Positions 1-35,297 of a stretch of 40,155 nucleotides of DNA are shown here, piece after piece. The notes under the pieces were generated by a model. The model was given only the letters and a program-made list of their open reading frames with translations. It ran no database searches and had not been told where the DNA came from. Origin of the DNA: a virus (Duplodnaviria; Heunggongvirae; Uroviricota; Caudoviricetes). The first letter of the stretch is position 1; each line of letters starts with the position of its first letter. The position numbers and the translations under genes are program-made. The stretch is from IMG/VR virus record IMGVR_UViG_2541047888_000009; one strand, 5' to 3'.

Positions 1-516
1 ATGAAATTAAAAAAATGTCTTCTGCCTGTGGCAATGTTAGCGTCATTTACTCTGGCAGGATGCCAGTCAAATGCTGATGATCATGCCGCCGATGTTTATC
101 AAACCGATCAACTGAATACCAAACAAGAAACTAAAACCGTTAATATTATTTCCATTCTTCCCGCAAAAGTTGCCGTAGACAACGCCCAAAATAAACGGAA
201 CGCACAAGCCTTCGGCGCGCTTATTGGCGCTGTCGCTGGCGGTGTTATCGGCCACAACGTCGGGTCTGGCAGCAATTCCGGAACGACAGCAGGTGCAGTT
301 GGCGGCGGAGCTGTTGGCGCAGCAGCGGGTTCTATGGTGAATGATAAAACCTTAGTGGAAGGTGTTTCTTTAACATATAAGGAAGGCACCAAAGTGTATA
401 CCTCCACCCAGGTGGGTAAAGAGTGCCAGTTTACGACAGGTTTAGCCGTTGTTATTACCACGACGTATAACGAAACGCGTATTCAGCCAAATACCAAATG
501 TCCTGAAAAGAGCTAA
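1..516 (+). CDS. Outer-membrane lipoprotein with glycine-zipper domain (SlyB/Pcp-like); host flank or terminal moron
   Basis: Signal peptide ending in lipobox LAGC (MKLKKCLLPVAMLASFTLAGCQS); Gly/Ala-rich stretch GALIGAVAGGVIGHNVGSG...GGGAVGAAAGS typical of glycine-zipper lipoproteins. Family assignment from memory. Confidence 0.6.
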   Translation: MKLKKCLLPVAMLASFTLAGCQSNADDHAADVYQTDQLNTKQETKTVNIISILPAKVAVDNAQNKRNAQAFGALIGAVAGGVIGHNVGSGSNSGTTAGAVGGGAVGAAAGSMVNDKTLVEGVSLTYKEGTKVYTSTQVGKECQFTTGLAVVITTTYNETRIQPNTKCPEKS

Positions 517-531
517 TAATCAGGAGGAGTC

Positions 532-1072
532 ATGAAGAAAGTTTTTCTTTGCGCCATCTTAGCCTCCTTAAGCTATCCGGCTATCGCCTCATCATTGCAG
601 GATCAACTCTCGGCTGTCGCAGAAGCGGAACAGCAAGGTAAAAATGAAGAGCAAAGGCAGCATGACGAATGGGTCGCGGAGCGCAACAGGGAAATCCAGC
701 AAGAGAAGCAACGTCGCGCAAACGCCCAGGCCGCGGCTAATAAAAGAGCGGCAACGGCAGCAGCGAATAAGAAAGCTCGTCAGGATAAACTGGACGCCGA
801 AGCCACTGCGGACAAAAAAACGCGATCAAAGTTATGAAGATGAGCTACGTAGCTTAGAGATTCAGAAGCAAAAACTGGCGCTGGCGAAAGAAGAAGCCCG
901 CGTTAAGCGCGAAAACGAATTTATCGATCAGGAACTGAAGCACAAAGCTGCGCAAACCGATGTGGTGCAATCTGAAGCTGACGCAAACAGAAATATGACT
1001 GAAGGCGGTCGCGATCTGATGAAAAGCGTGGGTAAAGCAGAAGAGAACAAATCGGACAGCTGGTTTAACTAA
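532..1072 (+). pseudogene. Secreted coiled-coil protein split across two frames at an A7 homopolymer (814..820): frameshifted gene, sequencing error or slippage-prone tract
   Basis: ORF 532..837 has a strong RBS (AGGAGG at 521..526) and signal peptide (MKKVFLCAILASLSYPAIASS); the reading frame continues in the +1 frame ORF 644..1072. Removing one A from the A7 run joins them into one ~180-aa protein. Confidence 0.45.
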
Positions 1073-1110
1073 GCGATGTCAGTAACTTCAAGCCTATGAT
1101 TCGTGAGTAT

Positions 1111-1143
1111 AAAAAACCCTCTGTAGTAACAGAGGGTTTTGTT
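1111..1143. terminator. Bidirectional rho-independent terminator between the left-flank genes and the lysis operon
   Basis: AAAAAA-CCCTCTGT-AGTA-ACAGAGGG-TTTT: 8-bp GC-rich stem flanked by an A-run and a T-run, so it reads as hairpin plus U-tract on both strands. Confidence 0.6.
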
Positions 1144-1267
1144 CATTCATAGTACAGGGTTCAAATCATTCCCACTCAATTATTTACGACACACATAACC
1201 AATTGACTGATAACAACTTTCTGCAACCTGATTTTCGCCGTACCGTTTTATATACCGTCACCGGAAA

Positions 1268-3080: not shown

Positions 3081-3300
3081 GTTTTCCACCGTTTATATGC
3101 ATAACTACCTCCTGAACAGTAAAGCATTATGCATGATAAACCATTTATGGTTTTTTGTTACTTCAACATCGTCAATCCCCTGTTTTCATGCCGATAATAA
3201 GGCTCACCTTTTACATAACACTGAAGAAACAACAGTACAGAAATGATTCAAACTATGGAGATCGGGTTGAATACCGCGCCATTTGATGGCGCGGTAGCGG

Positions 3301-6396: not shown

Positions 6397-6500
6397 GTTA
6401 AATCTCCAGATAGTCGCAGCACCCGTTGCGCCGCATATCTGGTTATTCTATTACCTGAAAAACCACATATGGATAGAAATACTGTGAATATAAATAGATA

Positions 6501-6515
6501 TTACCTTTTAGGTAA
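6501..6515. promoter_or_regulatory. Copy of the operator palindrome TTACC-N5-GGTAA (TTACCTTTTAGGTAA) upstream of the LexA-controlled moron
   Basis: Exact match to the 15-bp inverted repeat that clusters in the immunity region. Confidence 0.5.
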
Positions 6516-6554: not shown

Positions 6555-6570
6555 CTGTATAAATATACAG
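6555..6570 (+). promoter_or_regulatory. LexA (SOS) box CTGTATAAATATACAG
   Basis: Perfect CTGT-N8-ACAG palindrome with AT-rich centre, 22 bp upstream of the ATG at 6593 and overlapping the probable -10 region. Confidence 0.7.
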
Positions 6571-6592
6571 TTATTGCATGGAGAAGATTAAG

Positions 6593-6850
6593 ATGCAGCA
6601 GTATCACTATCCACTGGAAGACGGATTTACCGAAAGGATTCACACGCCGGGAGGCGTCAAGTCACTGGTGGAGGGATCGCACTTGATGAAATTACTCCGG
6701 GATCTAGATAAGGATGGATTTAATGTCGATGGCCCACTTGCCGAACTGACTGCACTGATTAACTACGTCACCAGCTCACAGATGTCTATGCAGGATCTGC
6801 AAACACATCTCGACTATTGTGCCGAACAATTACGAAAACAAACCACATAA
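6593..6850 (+). CDS. LexA-regulated small protein (85 aa), opposite strand to the virion genes; candidate antirepressor
   Basis: ATG at 6593 preceded by GGAG (6581..6584); LexA box immediately upstream; followed by a hairpin terminator. No family recognised. Confidence 0.6.
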   Translation: MQQYHYPLEDGFTERIHTPGGVKSLVEGSHLMKLLRDLDKDGFNVDGPLAELTALINYVTSSQMSMQDLQTHLDYCAEQLRKQTT

Positions 6851-6856
6851 AGAAAA

Positions 6857-6872
6857 GGCCGCGAAAGCGGCC
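6857..6872. terminator. Hairpin GGCCGC-GAAA-GCGGCC, terminator for the minus-strand membrane-protein gene and probably the plus-strand moron
   Basis: 6-bp GC stem; on the minus strand it is followed by TTTTCTTTAT; on the plus strand the T-run is displaced by the GTGACATGTCAC palindrome. Confidence 0.5.
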
Positions 6873-6873
6873 T

Positions 6874-6885
6874 GTGACATGTCAC
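6874..6885. repeat. 12-bp perfect palindrome GTGACATGTCAC, copy 1 of 3
   Basis: Exact 12-mer also at 24431..24442 and 26882..26893; all three in short intergenic gaps. Confidence 0.8.
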
Positions 6886-7178
6886 GTCCCTTTTCTGAAT
6901 GATAGCCATTCGAAAAATGATGACATTCCACCGCAGACAATAGCAAAGATGATCCCACCAAAGAAGAGAAGGCCAGCCTGCCACCACTCCCACCGCCATA
7001 CATCCACAGCGCCAACCATACCAACAATCGCTCCAACAAATGGAATATAGCTCACGATGAAAGCAATGGGGGCTGCAATTATCCAGTGCAATCCCCACCA
7101 TGATTCAAGCCCAGCCATAATTGCTGCCAACTGAAAAAGACCAACGACGATATAAACAATGAATCCTATAGCTTGCAT
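6882..7178 (-). CDS. Small integral membrane protein (98 aa), unknown function
   Basis: AGGTGA RBS; three hydrophobic helices and a Trp-rich loop (VDVWRWEWWQAG); lies between the last internal virion protein gene and the tailspike. Confidence 0.55.
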   Translation of the reverse strand: MQAIGFIVYIVVGLFQLAAIMAGLESWWGLHWIIAAPIAFIVSYIPFVGAIVGMVGAVDVWRWEWWQAGLLFFGGIIFAIVCGGMSSFFEWLSFRKGT

Positions 7179-7373
7179 GTAGTCACCTATTTACCCAGTA
7201 AAAATAAGAGGCCTCCCCTCAATAAGGCTTGCAACAAGAACTACTCCCTGCACAACAAAGATGAACCAGCAAATAGCTTGAGTCTGAGGGTTAAGAAAAT
7301 ATTTGTAGCGGTCAATAAATAACAATCCACCAGAAATTATCACACTCAAAATAATTAAAAACACAACACTTCC

Positions 7374-23352: not shown

Positions 23353-23420
23353 ATCAATGACTCCGTACGCAATTAAATCATTACCAATTTAACCACATAT
23401 GATTTATTTATCGTAGAATG

Positions 23421-23457
23421 TTGACATTTAACGCGTGAATTATTACCTTTCAGGTAA
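23421..23457 (+). promoter_or_regulatory. Candidate moron promoter: -35 TTGACA (23421..23426), 17-bp spacer, -10-like TACCTT inside an operator palindrome (23443..23457, TTACCTTTCAGGTAA)
   Basis: Consensus -35 hexamer; the -10 candidate coincides with the left half-site of the repressor operator motif. Confidence 0.4.
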
Positions 23458-25992: not shown

Positions 25993-26588
25993 TGATTGCC
26001 ATCCTGACGTTCTTTCAGTCTCTTCCTGGCTGCCGCTATGCGATCAGCAATTGTCACATTCACATTAACATCCAGGCGTTCTTTGAACGCGTTGACATCA
26101 ACATGCTTACCAATCAGCTCAAGGTTCTTCACCTTGTCAGGCCATTTAATTTTTTTGAGGATTGTCTCTATCGAATCCTCGTTCATGTTCATGATGGTCG
26201 ATGACAGATCAAAGCCGCTAAGCGTAGTGCGCCAGATTTTCGGCCACTCACGGATTGGTTTAAGGCTCCCATCGTCGTTGAGGATGTCGATCACGTCCAT
26301 CTGGTCGATCTCCACCAGGCGCATGAGAACGTAATCAGCACTGACGCGCATTCGTTTGTTGCGCTCCTCCATCAACTCGGCAATCCGTTTTTGAATGCGT
26401 TCATCGCGCATCATGACACTGGCTTTAACTGCCGCTGTATTTGGGGAGAATCCTGCGTTAATCGCTGCCTGAGTCTGGTTTTCAGGCGTTTTGATGTATG
26501 ACTGGCAATAAGCCTCCTGCATTGCTGTTAGTGGCTTAAATTGCGTTGATTTGCGTTTATAGGTTTTAGGTTCAGCAGGCATCATAAC
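25989..26588 (-). CDS. Terminase small subunit
   Basis: Immediately upstream of and overlapping the large subunit; segment LTAMQEAYCQSYIKTPENQTQAAINAGFSPNTAAVKASVMM matches the small-terminase pattern. Start at internal Met assumed. Confidence 0.7.
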   Translation of the reverse strand, partial: VMMPAEPKTYKRKSTQFKPLTAMQEAYCQSYIKTPENQTQAAINAGFSPNTAAVKASVMMRDERIQKRIAELMEERNKRMRVSADYVLMRLVEIDQMDVIDILNDDGSLKPIREWPKIWRTTLSGFDLSSTIMNMNEDSIETILKKIKWPDKVKNLELIGKHVDVNAFKERLDVNVNVTIADRIAAARKRLKERQDGNQ

Positions 26589-26659
26589 CACCGTGGTAAT
26601 AGTTACCGTTGTGGTAATAGTACCATGCAAAATAAAGCCGCCATAGTTGGCGGCAGTAT

Positions 26660-30903: not shown

Positions 30904-30980
30904 TTACCTCTAAGGTAATTAAAAACCACATAAGACACGAAATCAATAGAGTTTAGAATGTTTTGTTACCTGATAGGTAA
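30904..30980 (-). promoter_or_regulatory. Internal promoter flanked by two operator palindromes (30904..30918 TTACCTCTAAGGTAA; 30966..30980 TTACCTGATAGGTAA)
   Basis: On the minus strand: -35 TTGATT, 17-bp spacer, -10 TTTAAT, with one operator over the -10/+1 and one upstream of the -35. Confidence 0.5.
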
Positions 30981-32831: not shown

Positions 32832-32911
32832 GGTAAGCCCTGTTATTAGTATTGGGATTACGGTTATTTTGTGCTGACACAAAAAAAAGATCAACCATAT
32901 TTGGTTTTTTA

Positions 32912-32926
32912 TTACCTTTGAGGTAC
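32912..32926. promoter_or_regulatory. Operator palindrome copy (TTACCTTTGAGGTAC) downstream of the Cro-like gene
   Basis: 14/15 match to the operator consensus, next to the terminator-like hairpin. Confidence 0.45.
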
Positions 32927-32934
32927 GAATAGAT

Positions 32935-32960
32935 ATGAAAAGACCGCCGGATGGCGGTCT
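32935..32960 (-). terminator. tR1-like terminator hairpin downstream of the Cro-like gene
   Basis: AGACCGCC-GGAT-GGCGGTCT stem-loop followed on the minus strand by TTTTCA (short U-tract). Confidence 0.4.
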
Positions 32961-33237: not shown

Positions 33238-33311
33238 ATAATAAATATTCACCTATAAGGTAACAAAAATCAAGGATAGTTACCCATGAGGTGCATTTAC
33301 CTGTTGGGTAA
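33238..33311. promoter_or_regulatory. OR-like region: three operator palindromes (33249..33263, 33280..33294, 33297..33311) and a PR-like promoter reading leftward
   Basis: Sites TCACCTATAAGGTAA, TTACCCATGAGGTGC, TTACCTGTTGGGTAA; on the minus strand -35 TTGTTA (33261..33266), 17-bp spacer, -10 TATTAT (33238..33243), about 25 bp before the Cro-like ATG. Confidence 0.65.
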
Positions 33312-33366
33312 TATTGCTTTAAATTGAATCATCTACTGATTCATATATGAGGCGATTTTCCAGAAA

Positions 33367-33951
33367 ATGAAAAGTATCCAGGACGTCCGCAGGCAAAATC
33401 TCAACGACTTGATCGACCGTGAATTCAATGGTGTTCAGACGCGGATGGCCGAAAAACTTGGAACTCAGGCAAATCTGGTAAACCGCTGGGCTCTTGGTAA
33501 GAAGGTTATCGGCGATCAGGTTGCGCGAAAAATTGAAGCTGCCGCCAATAAACCCCGTAACTGGCTTGATATCGATCGCTCGCTTTCTCAGGAAGGTTTT
33601 CAGCCTGTCGGCCCAAGCGACATTGGCCAGCTGGCGGCTCACAACCTGGAACGCTGGATGAGCGAAAGCCGCGACCTTTCAACACAGGGAAAACTTCACC
33701 GCGCATCCGGCGTAGCCCAGGTGACAATCAGCCGCCTGTTAAACAATGAGGTCAGCGTTTCCATTTCCACCCTGGAGAATGTTGCATCTGCATTCGGGCG
33801 TCACGGATATGAACTACTGATTCACCCGCACGACCCTGCAACTATCAACTATGACCGCTCGCGCTACGCATTGTTACCTGAAACAGAGAAAGCAAAGATC
33901 GAAAGTTACATTGAATTTGTCATCAACCAGAACGAAAAAAGCAAACAATAA
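33367..33951 (+). CDS. Prophage repressor (CI-like), tandem XRE-type HTH domains, no recognisable S24 peptidase domain
   Basis: Two HTH-like segments (QTRMAEKLGTQANLVNRWALGKK and ASGVAQVTISRLLNNEVSVSISTLENVASAFG); sits between operator clusters, divergent from the Cro-like gene; terminator follows; no SD before the ATG. Confidence 0.65.
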   Translation: MKSIQDVRRQNLNDLIDREFNGVQTRMAEKLGTQANLVNRWALGKKVIGDQVARKIEAAANKPRNWLDIDRSLSQEGFQPVGPSDIGQLAAHNLERWMSESRDLSTQGKLHRASGVAQVTISRLLNNEVSVSISTLENVASAFGRHGYELLIHPHDPATINYDRSRYALLPETEKAKIESYIEFVINQNEKSKQ

Positions 33952-33971
33952 AACTATAGTTTTCAGCAAGT

Positions 33972-33997
33972 AAGCCGCCTCATGGCGGCTTTTTTAT
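33972..33997 (+). terminator. Rho-independent terminator after the repressor gene
   Basis: AAGCCGCC-TCAT-GGCGGCTT followed by TTTTTATT. Confidence 0.7.
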
Positions 33998-34008
33998 TGC
34001 CAGATAGA

Positions 34009-34085
34009 TTACCTTACGGGTAATTTTTTTAACTCATATCTATTGACACCAAACCAAATAAGCATAATTATTACCTCAACGGTAA
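34009..34085 (+). promoter_or_regulatory. OL/PL-like region: operators at 34009..34023 (TTACCTTACGGGTAA) and 34071..34085 (TTACCTCAACGGTAA) flanking a -35 TTGACA (34043..34048)
   Basis: Consensus -35, AT-rich -10 region (CATAATTAT) about 16 bp downstream, operator over the +1 region; heads the rightward early operon. Confidence 0.6.
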
Positions 34086-34104
34086 CAGACCGAGGTAACA
34101 AGTT

Positions 34105-34254
34105 ATGCAGTGGAAAATCATCAACGGTTGGTACTGCGTTACTGCATGCGGATTCATGAGCTGGAAGTTCCGCACCTTACAGGAAGGCATCAAGTGGGCT
34201 TTCATCAGCAAAGAAGCTCGCGATGTGGCAAACGATAACGAGATATGGGAGTAG
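34105..34254 (+). CDS. First small gene of the early-left operon (49 aa)
   Basis: GAGGTAA RBS; hand translation MQWKIINGWYCVTACGFMSWKFRTLQEGIKWAFISKEARDVANDNEIWE; below the ORF-track cutoff. Confidence 0.4.
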   Translation: MQWKIINGWYCVTACGFMSWKFRTLQEGIKWAFISKEARDVANDNEIWE

Positions 34255-34262
34255 GTTAGCAA

Positions 34263-35297
34263 ATGAGTGAATTATCAATCATCGAAATCACACCAGACAT
34301 GGCACCAAGAATTTACGTTGAAAAAGGGCTGGAAAAGTTTCTCGAGCAGATCCGTGAAGGTGTTAATGAAGTGCCTGACATTAGCACAGACAAAGGCAGA
34401 AAGCGCATTGCATCTCTGGCTGCGAAGGTTTCAAGAAGTAAAACAGCGGTAGAAAAACCAGGACGTGATTATCTGAAACGCCTGAAAGAACAGCCGAAAG
34501 TAGTTGAAGCAGAGTTACGACGCTTCGTAACCGAATGCGATCGGCTTCGTGATGAAGTACGCCGCCCACTCACCGAGTGGGAAAATGCTGAGAAATTACG
34601 CACTGAAGCACTGCAACAACGCCTGACAAATTTGCGAGCACTAGCTGACGTGATCGATCTCTCCGGAAACTATTTGCCATCATCTGATATTCAGGAACGA
34701 ATTCAAGAGGCTAAATCAGTAGCACTTGATGAAAGTTGGCAGGAGTACGCAGCAGAAGCTGGAGTAGCCAAGGATTCAACCATCCAGAAACTGGAAGAAT
34801 CACTCGCAGTAGCTCAAAAACGCGAGCATGAAGCCGCTGAGCTGGAGCGACTTCGCAAAGAAGCGGAGGAAAAAGCGCGCATTGAGCGAGAAGAGAATAT
34901 CCGACGGGAAGCTGCTGAACAGGCCAGGCTCGAAGCTGAACAAAAAGCGAAAGCTGAAATTGAGGCTGCGGCACGCCTGGCGGCGGAAGAAAAAGCACGT
35001 GCTGAAGTAGCAGAACGTCAGCGAATTGAAGCAGAGCAGCGTGCACGACGCGAAAAAGAAGAAGCCGTTGCCGAGGAACGCCGACGCCAAGAGGCGGCAG
35101 AAAAAGCCCGCCTTGACGAACAGAAGCGTATCGCCGACGAAGAAGCGCGCCGAGCTGCAGATAAAGAGCATCGCCGTACCGTTAACCGCAGAGTAATCGC
35201 AGATCTGATAGCCCAAGGCATTCACGAAGAATTCGCGCAGAAAGCAATGTTGGCTATCGCTGGCGGCAAAGTGCAGGACGCGTATATCAAATATTGA
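34263..35297 (+). CDS. Coiled-coil protein with a TolA-like Glu/Arg/Lys/Ala-rich helical repeat region
   Basis: 344 aa; central low-complexity region (ERLRKEAEEKARIEREENIRREAAEQARLEAEQKAKAEIEAAARLAAEEKARAE...). Confidence 0.6.
   Translation: MSELSIIEITPDMAPRIYVEKGLEKFLEQIREGVNEVPDISTDKGRKRIASLAAKVSRSKTAVEKPGRDYLKRLKEQPKVVEAELRRFVTECDRLRDEVRRPLTEWENAEKLRTEALQQRLTNLRALADVIDLSGNYLPSSDIQERIQEAKSVALDESWQEYAAEAGVAKDSTIQKLEESLAVAQKREHEAAELERLRKEAEEKARIEREENIRREAAEQARLEAEQKAKAEIEAAARLAAEEKARAEVAERQRIEAEQRARREKEEAVAEERRRQEAAEKARLDEQKRIADEEARRAADKEHRRTVNRRVIADLIAQGIHEEFAQKAMLAIAGGKVQDAYIKY

What the first reader, a model, noticed from the sequence alone, without database searches (positions are those of the whole stretch)
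33238..34085. Lambda-like immunity region built on a 15-bp operator TTACC-N5-GGTAA with tripartite OR and bipartite OL
Three operator copies lie between the divergent Cro-like and repressor genes (33249, 33280, 33297) and two flank a -35 TTGACA promoter downstream of the repressor (34009, 34071). A clean PR-like promoter (TTGTTA-17-TATTAT) overlaps the first site. The repressor has tandem HTH domains, so one monomer might span one palindrome, which would be an unusual architecture for a lambda-style switch.
Basis: partly seen in the sequence, partly recalled or inferred. Interest (0 to 1): 0.65.

Follow-up and report, generated by a model that had tools for sequence, protein, structure and literature searches.

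The report
Known phiV10/epsilon15-type phage repressor operators
This is the immunity switch of a common phiV10/epsilon15-like E. coli prophage: its palindromic repressor sites are real, but they are already annotated in a sister phage, and the repressor's second "HTH" domain holds the protein together rather than reading DNA.

Summary
TTACC-N5-GGTAA occurs perfectly 8 times in the window, against 0.02 expected. Three sites lie between the divergent repressor and cro-like genes, and two bracket a TTGACA-17-AATTAT promoter downstream of the repressor.

The window is a Uetakevirus prophage, 97% identical to phiV10. The same region is found in 562 of 5426 complete E. coli genomes. The epsilon15 RefSeq record already annotates this palindrome (ATTACC-N5-GGTAAT) as repressor-binding sites.

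The repressor is a full-length homologue of SPC32H Rep (PDB 5D50). In Rep the N-terminal HTH binds DNA, the second HTH-like domain dimerises the protein, and the C-terminal tail tetramerises it and binds the antirepressor Ant. The window also carries an Ant gene 87% identical to SPC32H Ant, behind a perfect LexA box.

So the "one monomer spans one palindrome" idea is not supported. The half-sites are symmetric, the two domains are unrelated in sequence, and only the N-terminal recognition helix is conserved along with the operator.

It also sits upstream of the first gene after P, terS, the head operon and ant/tailspike. Operator pairs 62 bp apart bracket two promoters. Verdict: correct, but ordinary and essentially already known.

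The parts
33367..33951 (+). Repressor gene rep (194 aa): N-terminal HTH DNA-binding domain (about 1-70), flexible linker (71-88), HTH-like middle dimerisation domain (about 89-152), C-terminal tetramerisation/Ant-binding tail (about 153-190)
   Evidence: Full-length match to SPC32H Rep 5D50 (E 3.5e-42). Foldseek top hits are 5D50 and 5D4Z. 99.5% identical to the phiV10 and ZX5 repressors. Domain roles are taken from PMC9986798.
32982..33212 (-). Cro-like gene (76 aa), homologue of epsilon15 gp39
   Evidence: phrog_35 'transcriptional repressor', E 8.7e-13. 78-97% identical across six phages.
33249..33263 (.). OR site nearest cro (TCACCTATAAGGTAA, 1 mismatch), inside the core of the PR-like promoter
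   Evidence: Imperfect in one half-site in all six genomes.
33280..33294 (.). Middle OR site (TTACCCATGAGGTGC, 2 mismatches)
   Evidence: Positional homologue of a perfect site in epsilon15, SPC32H and BUCT711, 17 bp from the next site.
33297..33311 (.). OR site nearest rep (perfect)
   Evidence: Perfect in all six genomes plus L006-L008.
33238..33273 (-). PR-like promoter for cro. Either TTGTTA(33266-61)-17-TATTAT(33243-38), or the -35 TTGATT (33273-68) that is conserved in all genomes
   Evidence: Scan hit, 9 of 12. My own weight-matrix scan of six genomes. The AATCAA block is conserved.
33296..33325 (+). Candidate rep promoter: TTTACC-18-TAAATT, with the perfect OR site in its -35/spacer (inferred)
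   Evidence: Best rep-sense candidate, at the same position in all six genomes. Not found by the stricter scan.
33972..33991 (+). Intrinsic terminator after rep
34009..34023 (.). Distal OL site (perfect), 19 nt upstream of the -35
34043..34071 (+). PL-like promoter TTGACA-17-AATTAT
   Evidence: 10 of 12. Conserved in six genomes.
34071..34085 (.). Proximal OL site (perfect). It starts at the last base of the -10 and covers the expected transcription start. It lies 62 bp from the distal site
34105..34254 (+). First gene of the PL operon (49 aa, epsilon15 gp37 homologue)
   Evidence: phrog_898.
32912..32926 (.). Imperfect operator (1 mismatch) just downstream of the cro terminator (32941-32960)
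   Evidence: Position conserved, and always imperfect, in all six genomes.
30904..30980 (-). Second bracketed promoter, after replication gene P: operator 30980-66, TTGATT(30946-41)-17-TTTAAT(30923-18), operator 30918-04. The two operators are 62 bp apart, and the proximal one contains the Shine-Dalgarno of the DUF1064 gene
   Evidence: Same architecture in six genomes.
26585..26617 (-). Operator pair 18 bp apart (perfect, and 1 mismatch), between a terminator and the terS start. Preceded by TGgTACTAT
   Evidence: Conserved in phiV10, epsilon15 and Tyrion.
23443..23457 (.). Operator upstream of the head operon (gp3 homologue)
   Evidence: Annotated as a repressor site at the homologous position in epsilon15.
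6501..6515 (.). Operator between the divergent tailspike and ant genes
   Evidence: Conserved in all six genomes.
6555..6570 (+). Perfect LexA box CTGTATAAATATACAG, immediately upstream of ant
   Evidence: Conserved in position.
6593..6850 (+). Antirepressor gene ant (85 aa)
   Evidence: 87% identical to SPC32H Ant (E 3e-57).

Best explanation
The region is the immunity switch of a phiV10/epsilon15-type (Uetakevirus) prophage.

Binding. Rep binds the 17-bp palindrome ATTACC-N5-GGTAAT with pairs of identical N-terminal HTH domains. The HTH-like middle domain and the C-terminal tail hold the protein together as a dimer of dimers.

Repression. Bound operators lie inside or right after the core promoter elements, so they block RNA polymerase.
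- At PR, which drives cro and the replication genes, the operator lies between -35 and -10.
- At PL, which drives the recombination genes, one operator starts at the end of the -10 and another lies 62 bp upstream.
- The same operator also sits upstream of the first gene after P, terS, the head operon and the tailspike/ant genes. One protein therefore silences most of the genome directly.
- The perfect site nearest rep probably overlaps rep's own promoter and gives negative autoregulation.

Induction. Rep is not cleaved. DNA damage removes LexA from the box in front of ant, and Ant then takes the Rep tetramer apart.

Shown here: the sites, their enrichment and conservation, the promoter overlaps, and the homologies.
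Taken from the literature on close homologues: repressor function (ZX5), domain roles, tetramer binding and Ant action (SPC32H).
Inferred: which site does what, and the rep promoter.
For: Enrichment and conservation:
- 8 perfect sites against 0.02 expected.
- 55 perfect sites in six Uetakevirus genomes, at homologous non-coding positions.
- In phiV10, 7 of 8 perfect sites fall in the 6.5% of the genome that is non-coding (P about 4e-8).

Prior annotation: the epsilon15 RefSeq 'protein_bind: repressor' features are exactly this motif.

Promoter overlap.

Rep:
- Homologous to 5D50 over its full length.
- Domain roles and tetramer binding to palindromic sites are reported in PMC9986798 and PMC9638917.
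- NLVNRW is invariant, while the middle-domain helix is variable.
- The flanks are symmetric, A at -1 and T at +16, and the centre of the spacer is A or T.
- No S24 peptidase domain.

Induction and function:
- Ant is 87% identical to SPC32H Ant, and a perfect LexA box lies in front of it.
- Overexpressing the 99.5%-identical ZX5 repressor abolished free phage and cut holin and endolysin transcripts by more than 99.9%.
Against: - No binding experiment on these exact sites was available to me. The primary SPC32H and epsilon15 papers are not in the library, so which operators were tested is unknown to me.
- The strict scan found no consensus sigma-70 promoter at the terS, head or ant/tailspike sites. 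Repression there is inferred from position only.
- The strongest OR site overlaps the candidate rep promoter, not PR. This is the opposite of lambda and remains unexplained.
- The highly conserved Cro-like protein could share these sites.
Confidence: 0.8

Rival explanations
1. Each Rep monomer reads a whole palindrome, with one half-site per HTH domain (N-terminal plus second domain), like a natural single-chain repressor.
For: Two HTH-like folds lie in one chain. The linker between them is flexible (pLDDT below 50 at residues 74-83). The half-site centres are 10 bp apart.
Against: - The half-sites and flanks are dyad-symmetric, whereas the two domains have no detectable similarity (E 0.7).
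- The second-domain 'recognition helix' is 18% identical between the window and SPC32H, although the operators are identical. The N-terminal helix core is invariant.
- In SPC32H Rep the second domain is described as a dimerisation domain, and DNA is bound by N-terminal pairs of a tetramer, with dimers binding weakly.
Confidence: 0.04
2. The palindromes are mainly the sites of the Cro-like protein, or of another phage regulator, and Rep acts elsewhere.
For: The Cro-like protein is more conserved than Rep (78% against 43% between the window and epsilon15). The operator is likewise invariant. The protein matches a 'transcriptional repressor' PHROG.
Against: - The sites are annotated as repressor sites in epsilon15.
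- They occupy PL, PR and the late operons, which is what a lysogenic repressor must silence.
- The Rep N-terminal recognition helix is invariant alongside the operator.
- In lambda-type switches Cro and the repressor share operators, so Cro binding would add to Rep binding rather than replace it.
Confidence: 0.06
3. The motif is a promoter or structural element, or a host-factor site, rather than an operator. Its AT-rich flanks often form part of -10 hexamers.
For: The flanking A and T merge with -10-like hexamers (TATTACC, AATTACC, GGTAATAAT). The epsilon15 record predicts IHF sites next to some of them.
Against: - A G+C-containing 5+5 palindrome is conserved exactly while its spacers and surroundings diverge.
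- It occurs at different positions relative to -35/-10 in different promoters.
- It also occurs as tandem or triple arrays, which is typical of operators.
Confidence: 0.03

Closest known systems
Salmonella phage SPC32H Rep / Ant / LexA switch (PDB 5D50, 5D4Z; Kim & Ryu 2013; Kim et al. 2016)
   Same: - Rep is a full-length homologue (E 3.5e-42, about 43% identity).
- Ant is 87% identical, with a LexA box in front of it.
- The same operator palindrome sits at the same genome positions.
- Same genus.
   Different: - The Rep middle and C-terminal domains have diverged (34-47% identity).
- The window has two OL sites, against three in SPC32H.
- The middle OR site is degenerate here.
- Binding has not been tested for the phiV10-type protein.
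Salmonella phage epsilon15 gp38 repressor and its annotated 'protein_bind: repressor' sites (NC_004775.2; Kropinski et al. 2007)
   Same: Identical motif, ATTACC-N5-GGTAAT, at terS, the head operon, the tail fibre gene, OL and downstream of the replication genes.
   Different: The epsilon15 record does not annotate the three OR sites, the second post-replication site or the lysis-cassette site that my scan finds. The window has no lysis-cassette site.
Escherichia phages phiV10 and vB_EcoP_ZX5
   Same: 97% DNA identity across the region and a 99.5% identical repressor. The phiV10 record already notes 'two helix-turn-helix motifs'. The ZX5 repressor and anti-repressor were verified by overexpression.
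   Different: No operators are annotated or mapped in those records or in that paper.
Lambda CI/Cro with OR1-3 and OL1-3
   Same: Divergent repressor and cro genes, a tripartite OR, operators overlapping PR and PL, and the same gene order (recombination genes leftward, replication genes rightward).
   Different: - There is no S24 autocleavage domain.
- Oligomerisation uses an HTH-like domain plus a p53-like tetramerisation tail.
- The best OR site lies next to rep rather than PR.
- Operators also sit at late operons.
- Induction is by an antirepressor.
Phage P1 C1 repressor with operators dispersed round the genome (from my own knowledge)
   Same: One repressor has many operators scattered across the transcription units.
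   Different: The protein is unrelated, the P1 operator is asymmetric, and the immunity circuitry is different.
pLS20 Rco and the p53-type TetDloop tetramerisation domain (PMC9986798)
   Same: An N-terminal HTH DNA-binding domain plus a C-terminal tetramerisation module linked to DNA looping, controlled by an anti-repressor.
   Different: Rco lacks the middle HTH-like dimerisation domain, and it is a plasmid conjugation regulator.

Membership tests
SPC32H-type Rep/Ant/LexA immunity system (Uetakevirus) | Repressor homologous to SPC32H Rep over all three domains | tested here: met
   phmmer against 5D50: residues 1-190 align with 2-197, E 3.5e-42. Foldseek top hits are 5D50 and 5D4Z.
SPC32H-type Rep/Ant/LexA immunity system (Uetakevirus) | Small antirepressor Ant encoded next to the tailspike gene | tested here: met
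   Window 6593-6850 is 87% identical to SPC32H Ant.
SPC32H-type Rep/Ant/LexA immunity system (Uetakevirus) | LexA box overlapping the ant promoter | tested here: met
   Perfect CTGT-N8-ACAG at 6555-6570, 7 nt before the ORF at 6578. Position conserved.
SPC32H-type Rep/Ant/LexA immunity system (Uetakevirus) | Rep binds operator DNA as a tetramer through N-terminal domain pairs, and Ant disassembles it | not testable with these tools
   Known only from descriptions of Kim et al. 2016 in citing papers.
epsilon15-type repressor operator (ATTACC-N5-GGTAAT) | Same palindrome at homologous intergenic positions | tested here: met
Lambda-type CI (LexA-like, self-cleaving) repressor | C-terminal S24 peptidase domain with a cleavage site | tested here: not met
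   No Peptidase_S24 hit in Pfam. The C-terminal part is an HTH_3-like domain plus a helical tail.
Lambda-type CI (LexA-like, self-cleaving) repressor | Divergent repressor/cro genes with a tripartite OR, and operators at PL | tested here: met
   The half-sites and flanks are symmetric. The two domains are unrelated (E 0.7), and the second-domain helix is not conserved alongside the operator. The literature assigns the second domain to dimerisation.

The most novel reading that the evidence does not exclude
The two DNA-binding heads of one Rep tetramer may be matched to the operator pairs that bracket the -35/-10 of PL and of the promoter after gene P. Those pairs are 62 bp apart in all six genomes (63 bp at the OL pair of BUCT711). 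Binding both would close a micro-loop of about six helical turns around the promoter.

Together with the operators at terS, the head operon and ant/tailspike, this would make a P1-like dispersed regulon. Its 13 or more sites may have frozen operator specificity across the whole family: the operator is identical while Rep identity ranges from 43% to 100%. If so, immunity could not diversify through operator change as it does in lambdoid phages.
Probability: 0.35. Interest if true: 0.45.

Novelty: already known. Interest (0 to 1): 0.2.

Why it matters
It matters little as a discovery. The phage group is sequenced many times over and is present in about a tenth of complete E. coli genomes. The operator motif is annotated in epsilon15, and the repressor/antirepressor mechanism has been solved structurally in SPC32H.

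It has some practical value. The analysis gives a complete operator and promoter map for the phiV10-type prophage, including the OR sites that the epsilon15 record omits. It also corrects a tempting misreading of the "tandem HTH" annotation.

The conserved 62-bp bracketing pairs and the invariant operator across a diverged repressor family are modest, testable leads on promoter micro-looping and on why this genus may form a single immunity group.

Tried and rejected
1. I tried to read the primary papers: Kropinski 2007 (PMC2698709), Kim & Ryu 2013 (PMC3807360) and Kim et al. 2016 (PMC4983836). None is held. Mechanistic statements therefore rest on citing papers and on the GenBank/RefSeq annotation.

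2. I looked for covariation between the recognition helix and the operator in distant homologues: Serratia P0080, and P0070 and P0078, which carry NLVSRW or NLISRW. The operator is unchanged in all of them, so no specificity test is possible.

3. I ran the strict sigma-70 scan at the terS, head and ant/tailspike operators. It found no consensus promoter. Only weaker or extended -10 candidates are visible by eye.

4. I looked for an operator upstream of the lysis cassette, as in phiV10 and epsilon15. The window has none, because that region has been replaced.

5. I considered the hairpin reported at 34068-34101 to be a terminator and rejected this. It arises from repeated GGTAAC half-sites around the Shine-Dalgarno sequence.

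6. I tested helical phasing as an argument for looping. A 62-bp spacing fits about 5.9 turns. However, the third OL site in epsilon15 (76 bp away) and the Serratia pair (75 bp apart) are not in phase, so the argument is weak.

Full report
**What the window is.** The 1.4-kb region around the finding is 97% identical to Escherichia phages phiv142-3, phiV10, ZX5, TL-2011b and others. It occurs in 562 of 5426 complete E. coli genomes. A whole-window comparison shows a phiV10-type (genus Uetakevirus, epsilon15-like podophage) prophage in reverse orientation. It runs from the lysis cassette (about 1160) to the start of the integrase gene at the window end.

**Check of the observation.**
- TTACC-N5-GGTAA is perfect at 33297, 34009 and 34071. 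The site at 33249 has one mismatch and the site at 33280 has two.
- Perfect matches number 8 in the window, against 0.02 expected from shuffles.
- At up to 2 mismatches there are 40 matches against 10.8 expected. The two imperfect OR sites therefore need other support.
- That support comes from conservation. In phiV10, epsilon15, SPC32H, Tyrion and BUCT711 the rep-cro gap holds three sites with the same 17 + 30/31 bp spacing. The middle site is perfect in epsilon15, SPC32H and BUCT711.
- A -35 TTGATT seven bases further upstream (33273-33268) is the element conserved in all six genomes. In the epsilon15 group it pairs with AATAAT. Either way, the operator nearest cro lies in the core promoter.

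**The motif is already annotated.** The epsilon15 RefSeq record carries seven "protein_bind: repressor, lysogeny" features. Every one reads (A)TTACC-N5-GGTAA(T). Across six genomes there are 55 perfect sites. They show a symmetric preference for A at -1 and T at +16, and an A or T at the centre of the spacer in 54 of 55. The operator is therefore a 17-bp dyad.

**The motif is genome-wide, not confined to the immunity region.** The other perfect sites in the window are at homologous positions in all the genomes compared:
- 30966 and 30904, after replication gene P.
- 26603 (with a one-mismatch partner at 26585), between a terminator and the terS start.
- 23443, upstream of the head operon.
- 6501, between the divergent tailspike and ant genes.
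- An imperfect site at 32912, just after the cro terminator, is also positionally conserved.

In phiV10, 7 of 8 perfect sites fall in the 6.5% of the genome that is non-coding (P about 4e-8).

**Promoter architecture.**
- At PL the proximal operator begins at the last base of the -10. The distal operator lies 19 nt upstream of the -35, so the two are 62 bp apart.
- The promoter after gene P has the same geometry: operator, 19 nt, TTGATT, 17 nt, TTTAAT, operator.
- This 62-bp spacing holds in all six genomes, except for 63 bp at the OL pair of BUCT711. It also holds in two more distant relatives.
- The best rep-sense promoter candidate is TTTACC-18-TAAATT (33296-33325). It sits at the same position in all six genomes and has the perfect OR site in its -35/spacer. 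This suggests negative autoregulation. It is an inference, because the stricter scan does not report this promoter.

**The repressor.**
- The 194-aa protein has a Pfam HTH_3 hit at residues 106-147. The N-terminal HTH gives only a weak, sub-threshold hit. There is no S24 peptidase domain.
- It aligns over its full length with SPC32H Rep (PDB 5D50, E 3.5e-42; the C-terminal fragment is 5D4Z).
- An AlphaFold model (pLDDT 76) shows two helical HTH-type domains joined by a low-confidence linker (residues 74-83), followed by a C-terminal helix. Its best structural matches are 5D50 and 5D4Z.
- Papers citing the structural study describe an N-terminal DNA-binding domain, a middle dimerisation domain and a C-terminal tetramerisation/Ant-binding domain. 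They report binding to palindromic sites as a tetramer, with the N-terminal pairs coming from different dimers, and weak binding by dimers. The tetrameric Ant splits the Rep tetramer into two dimers.
- The ZX5 repressor is 99.5% identical to the window's. Overexpressing it abolished free phage and cut holin and endolysin mRNA by more than 99.9%.

**Test of the "one monomer per palindrome" idea.**
- The two domains share no detectable similarity (E 0.7).
- The N-terminal domain is 54-56% identical between the phiV10 and epsilon15/BUCT711 groups, with N36-L-V-N-R-W41 invariant.
- The equivalent helix of the second domain is 18% identical to that of SPC32H, although the operators are the same.
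- Two different reading heads would not be expected to select two identical half-sites with symmetric flanks.

Together with the published domain roles, this makes the proposal very unlikely.

**Induction.** The window encodes an Ant homologue (6593-6850) that is 87% identical to SPC32H Ant. A perfect LexA box, CTGTATAAATATACAG, lies at 6555-6570 directly upstream, and a Rep operator lies about 40 bp further upstream. This is the SPC32H-type, LexA-controlled antirepressor circuit, not RecA-stimulated repressor cleavage.

**Wider family.** A database search found 86 homologues in Escherichia, Citrobacter, Lelliottia, Pluralibacter, Raoultella, Superficieibacter and Serratia. Three distant loci (52-59% identity, recognition helix NLVSRW or NLISRW) keep the same operator and the same tripartite OR. 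No helix-operator covariation is available, so operator specificity appears frozen across the family.

**Verdict.** But the system is a known one: epsilon15 operators and the SPC32H Rep/Ant/LexA switch, in a very common prophage. The one unusual claim, a tandem-HTH monomer spanning a palindrome, is not supported. The remaining leads are modest: the conserved 62-bp promoter-bracketing pairs, the dispersed regulon, and a second conserved palindrome noted in passing.

Noticed in passing
window 3139-3152, 32893-32906 (perfect); 6461-6474, 23391-23404 (1 mismatch): There is a second palindrome, AACCA-N4-TGGTT, with 9 hits at up to 1 mismatch against 1.1 expected (0 of 100 shuffles). Hits lie upstream of the lysis cassette, just after the cro terminator and its imperfect Rep site, in the tailspike promoter region and in the head-operon leader. 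Their positions are conserved in the other Uetakevirus genomes. It may be the site of a second (late?) regulator, or an extended -10-like element.
   Followed up: partly
window 30924-30931, 23391-23398, 6461-6468 (- strand); compare 26620-26627: A shared core, ATGTGGTT (ATGGTA before terS), lies next to Rep operators at the post-P, head and tailspike promoters. In the head and tailspike regions a lone GGTAAT half-site follows 5 nt later. On its own it is weak statistically (4 against 1.5 expected), but its position is conserved in six genomes.
   Followed up: partly
window about 23353-23425 (- strand): A non-coding block of about 75 nt upstream of the gp3-like first gene of the head operon is almost invariant across all six genomes, including the distant Klebsiella phage BUCT711, while its flanks diverge. 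It may be a structured leader or an activator-dependent late promoter.
   Followed up: no
window 6593-6850 compared with 33367-33951: Ant is 87% identical to SPC32H Ant, while its target Rep is only 43% identical (47% in the Ant-binding tail). The antirepressor is far more constrained than the repressor it inactivates.
   Followed up: partly
window 30904-30918 and 26585-26599: The promoter-proximal operators contain the ribosome-binding sites of the downstream genes (TTACCTTAGAGGTAAatcATG; TTACCACGGTGGTTAtgATG). Operator and translation signals are packed into the same bases, and this arrangement is conserved in the other genomes.
   Followed up: no
window 34263-35297: A 344-aa coiled-coil, Glu/Arg/Ala-rich protein (phrog_1376, no Pfam hit) is inserted in the PL operon. 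It is absent from phiV10, but some E. coli prophage annotations list it as a 'coiled-coil domain-containing protein'.
   Followed up: no
window 6850-7371: The Bro-N type 'anti-immunity' gene of phiV10 (p23), and the extra Rep operator in front of it, are replaced here by two small ORFs on the - strand that look like membrane proteins. The window therefore keeps only the small SPC32H-type Ant.
   Followed up: no
window 1-1160: The sequence beyond the lysis cassette encodes a glycine-zipper/TraT-like lipoprotein-type ORF (1-516) and DUF5384 ORFs, and it does not align with phiV10. It is either prophage cargo or host flank. The window ends exactly at the integrase start codon, so the conserved imperfect site upstream of int in the other genomes lies outside it.
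   Followed up: no
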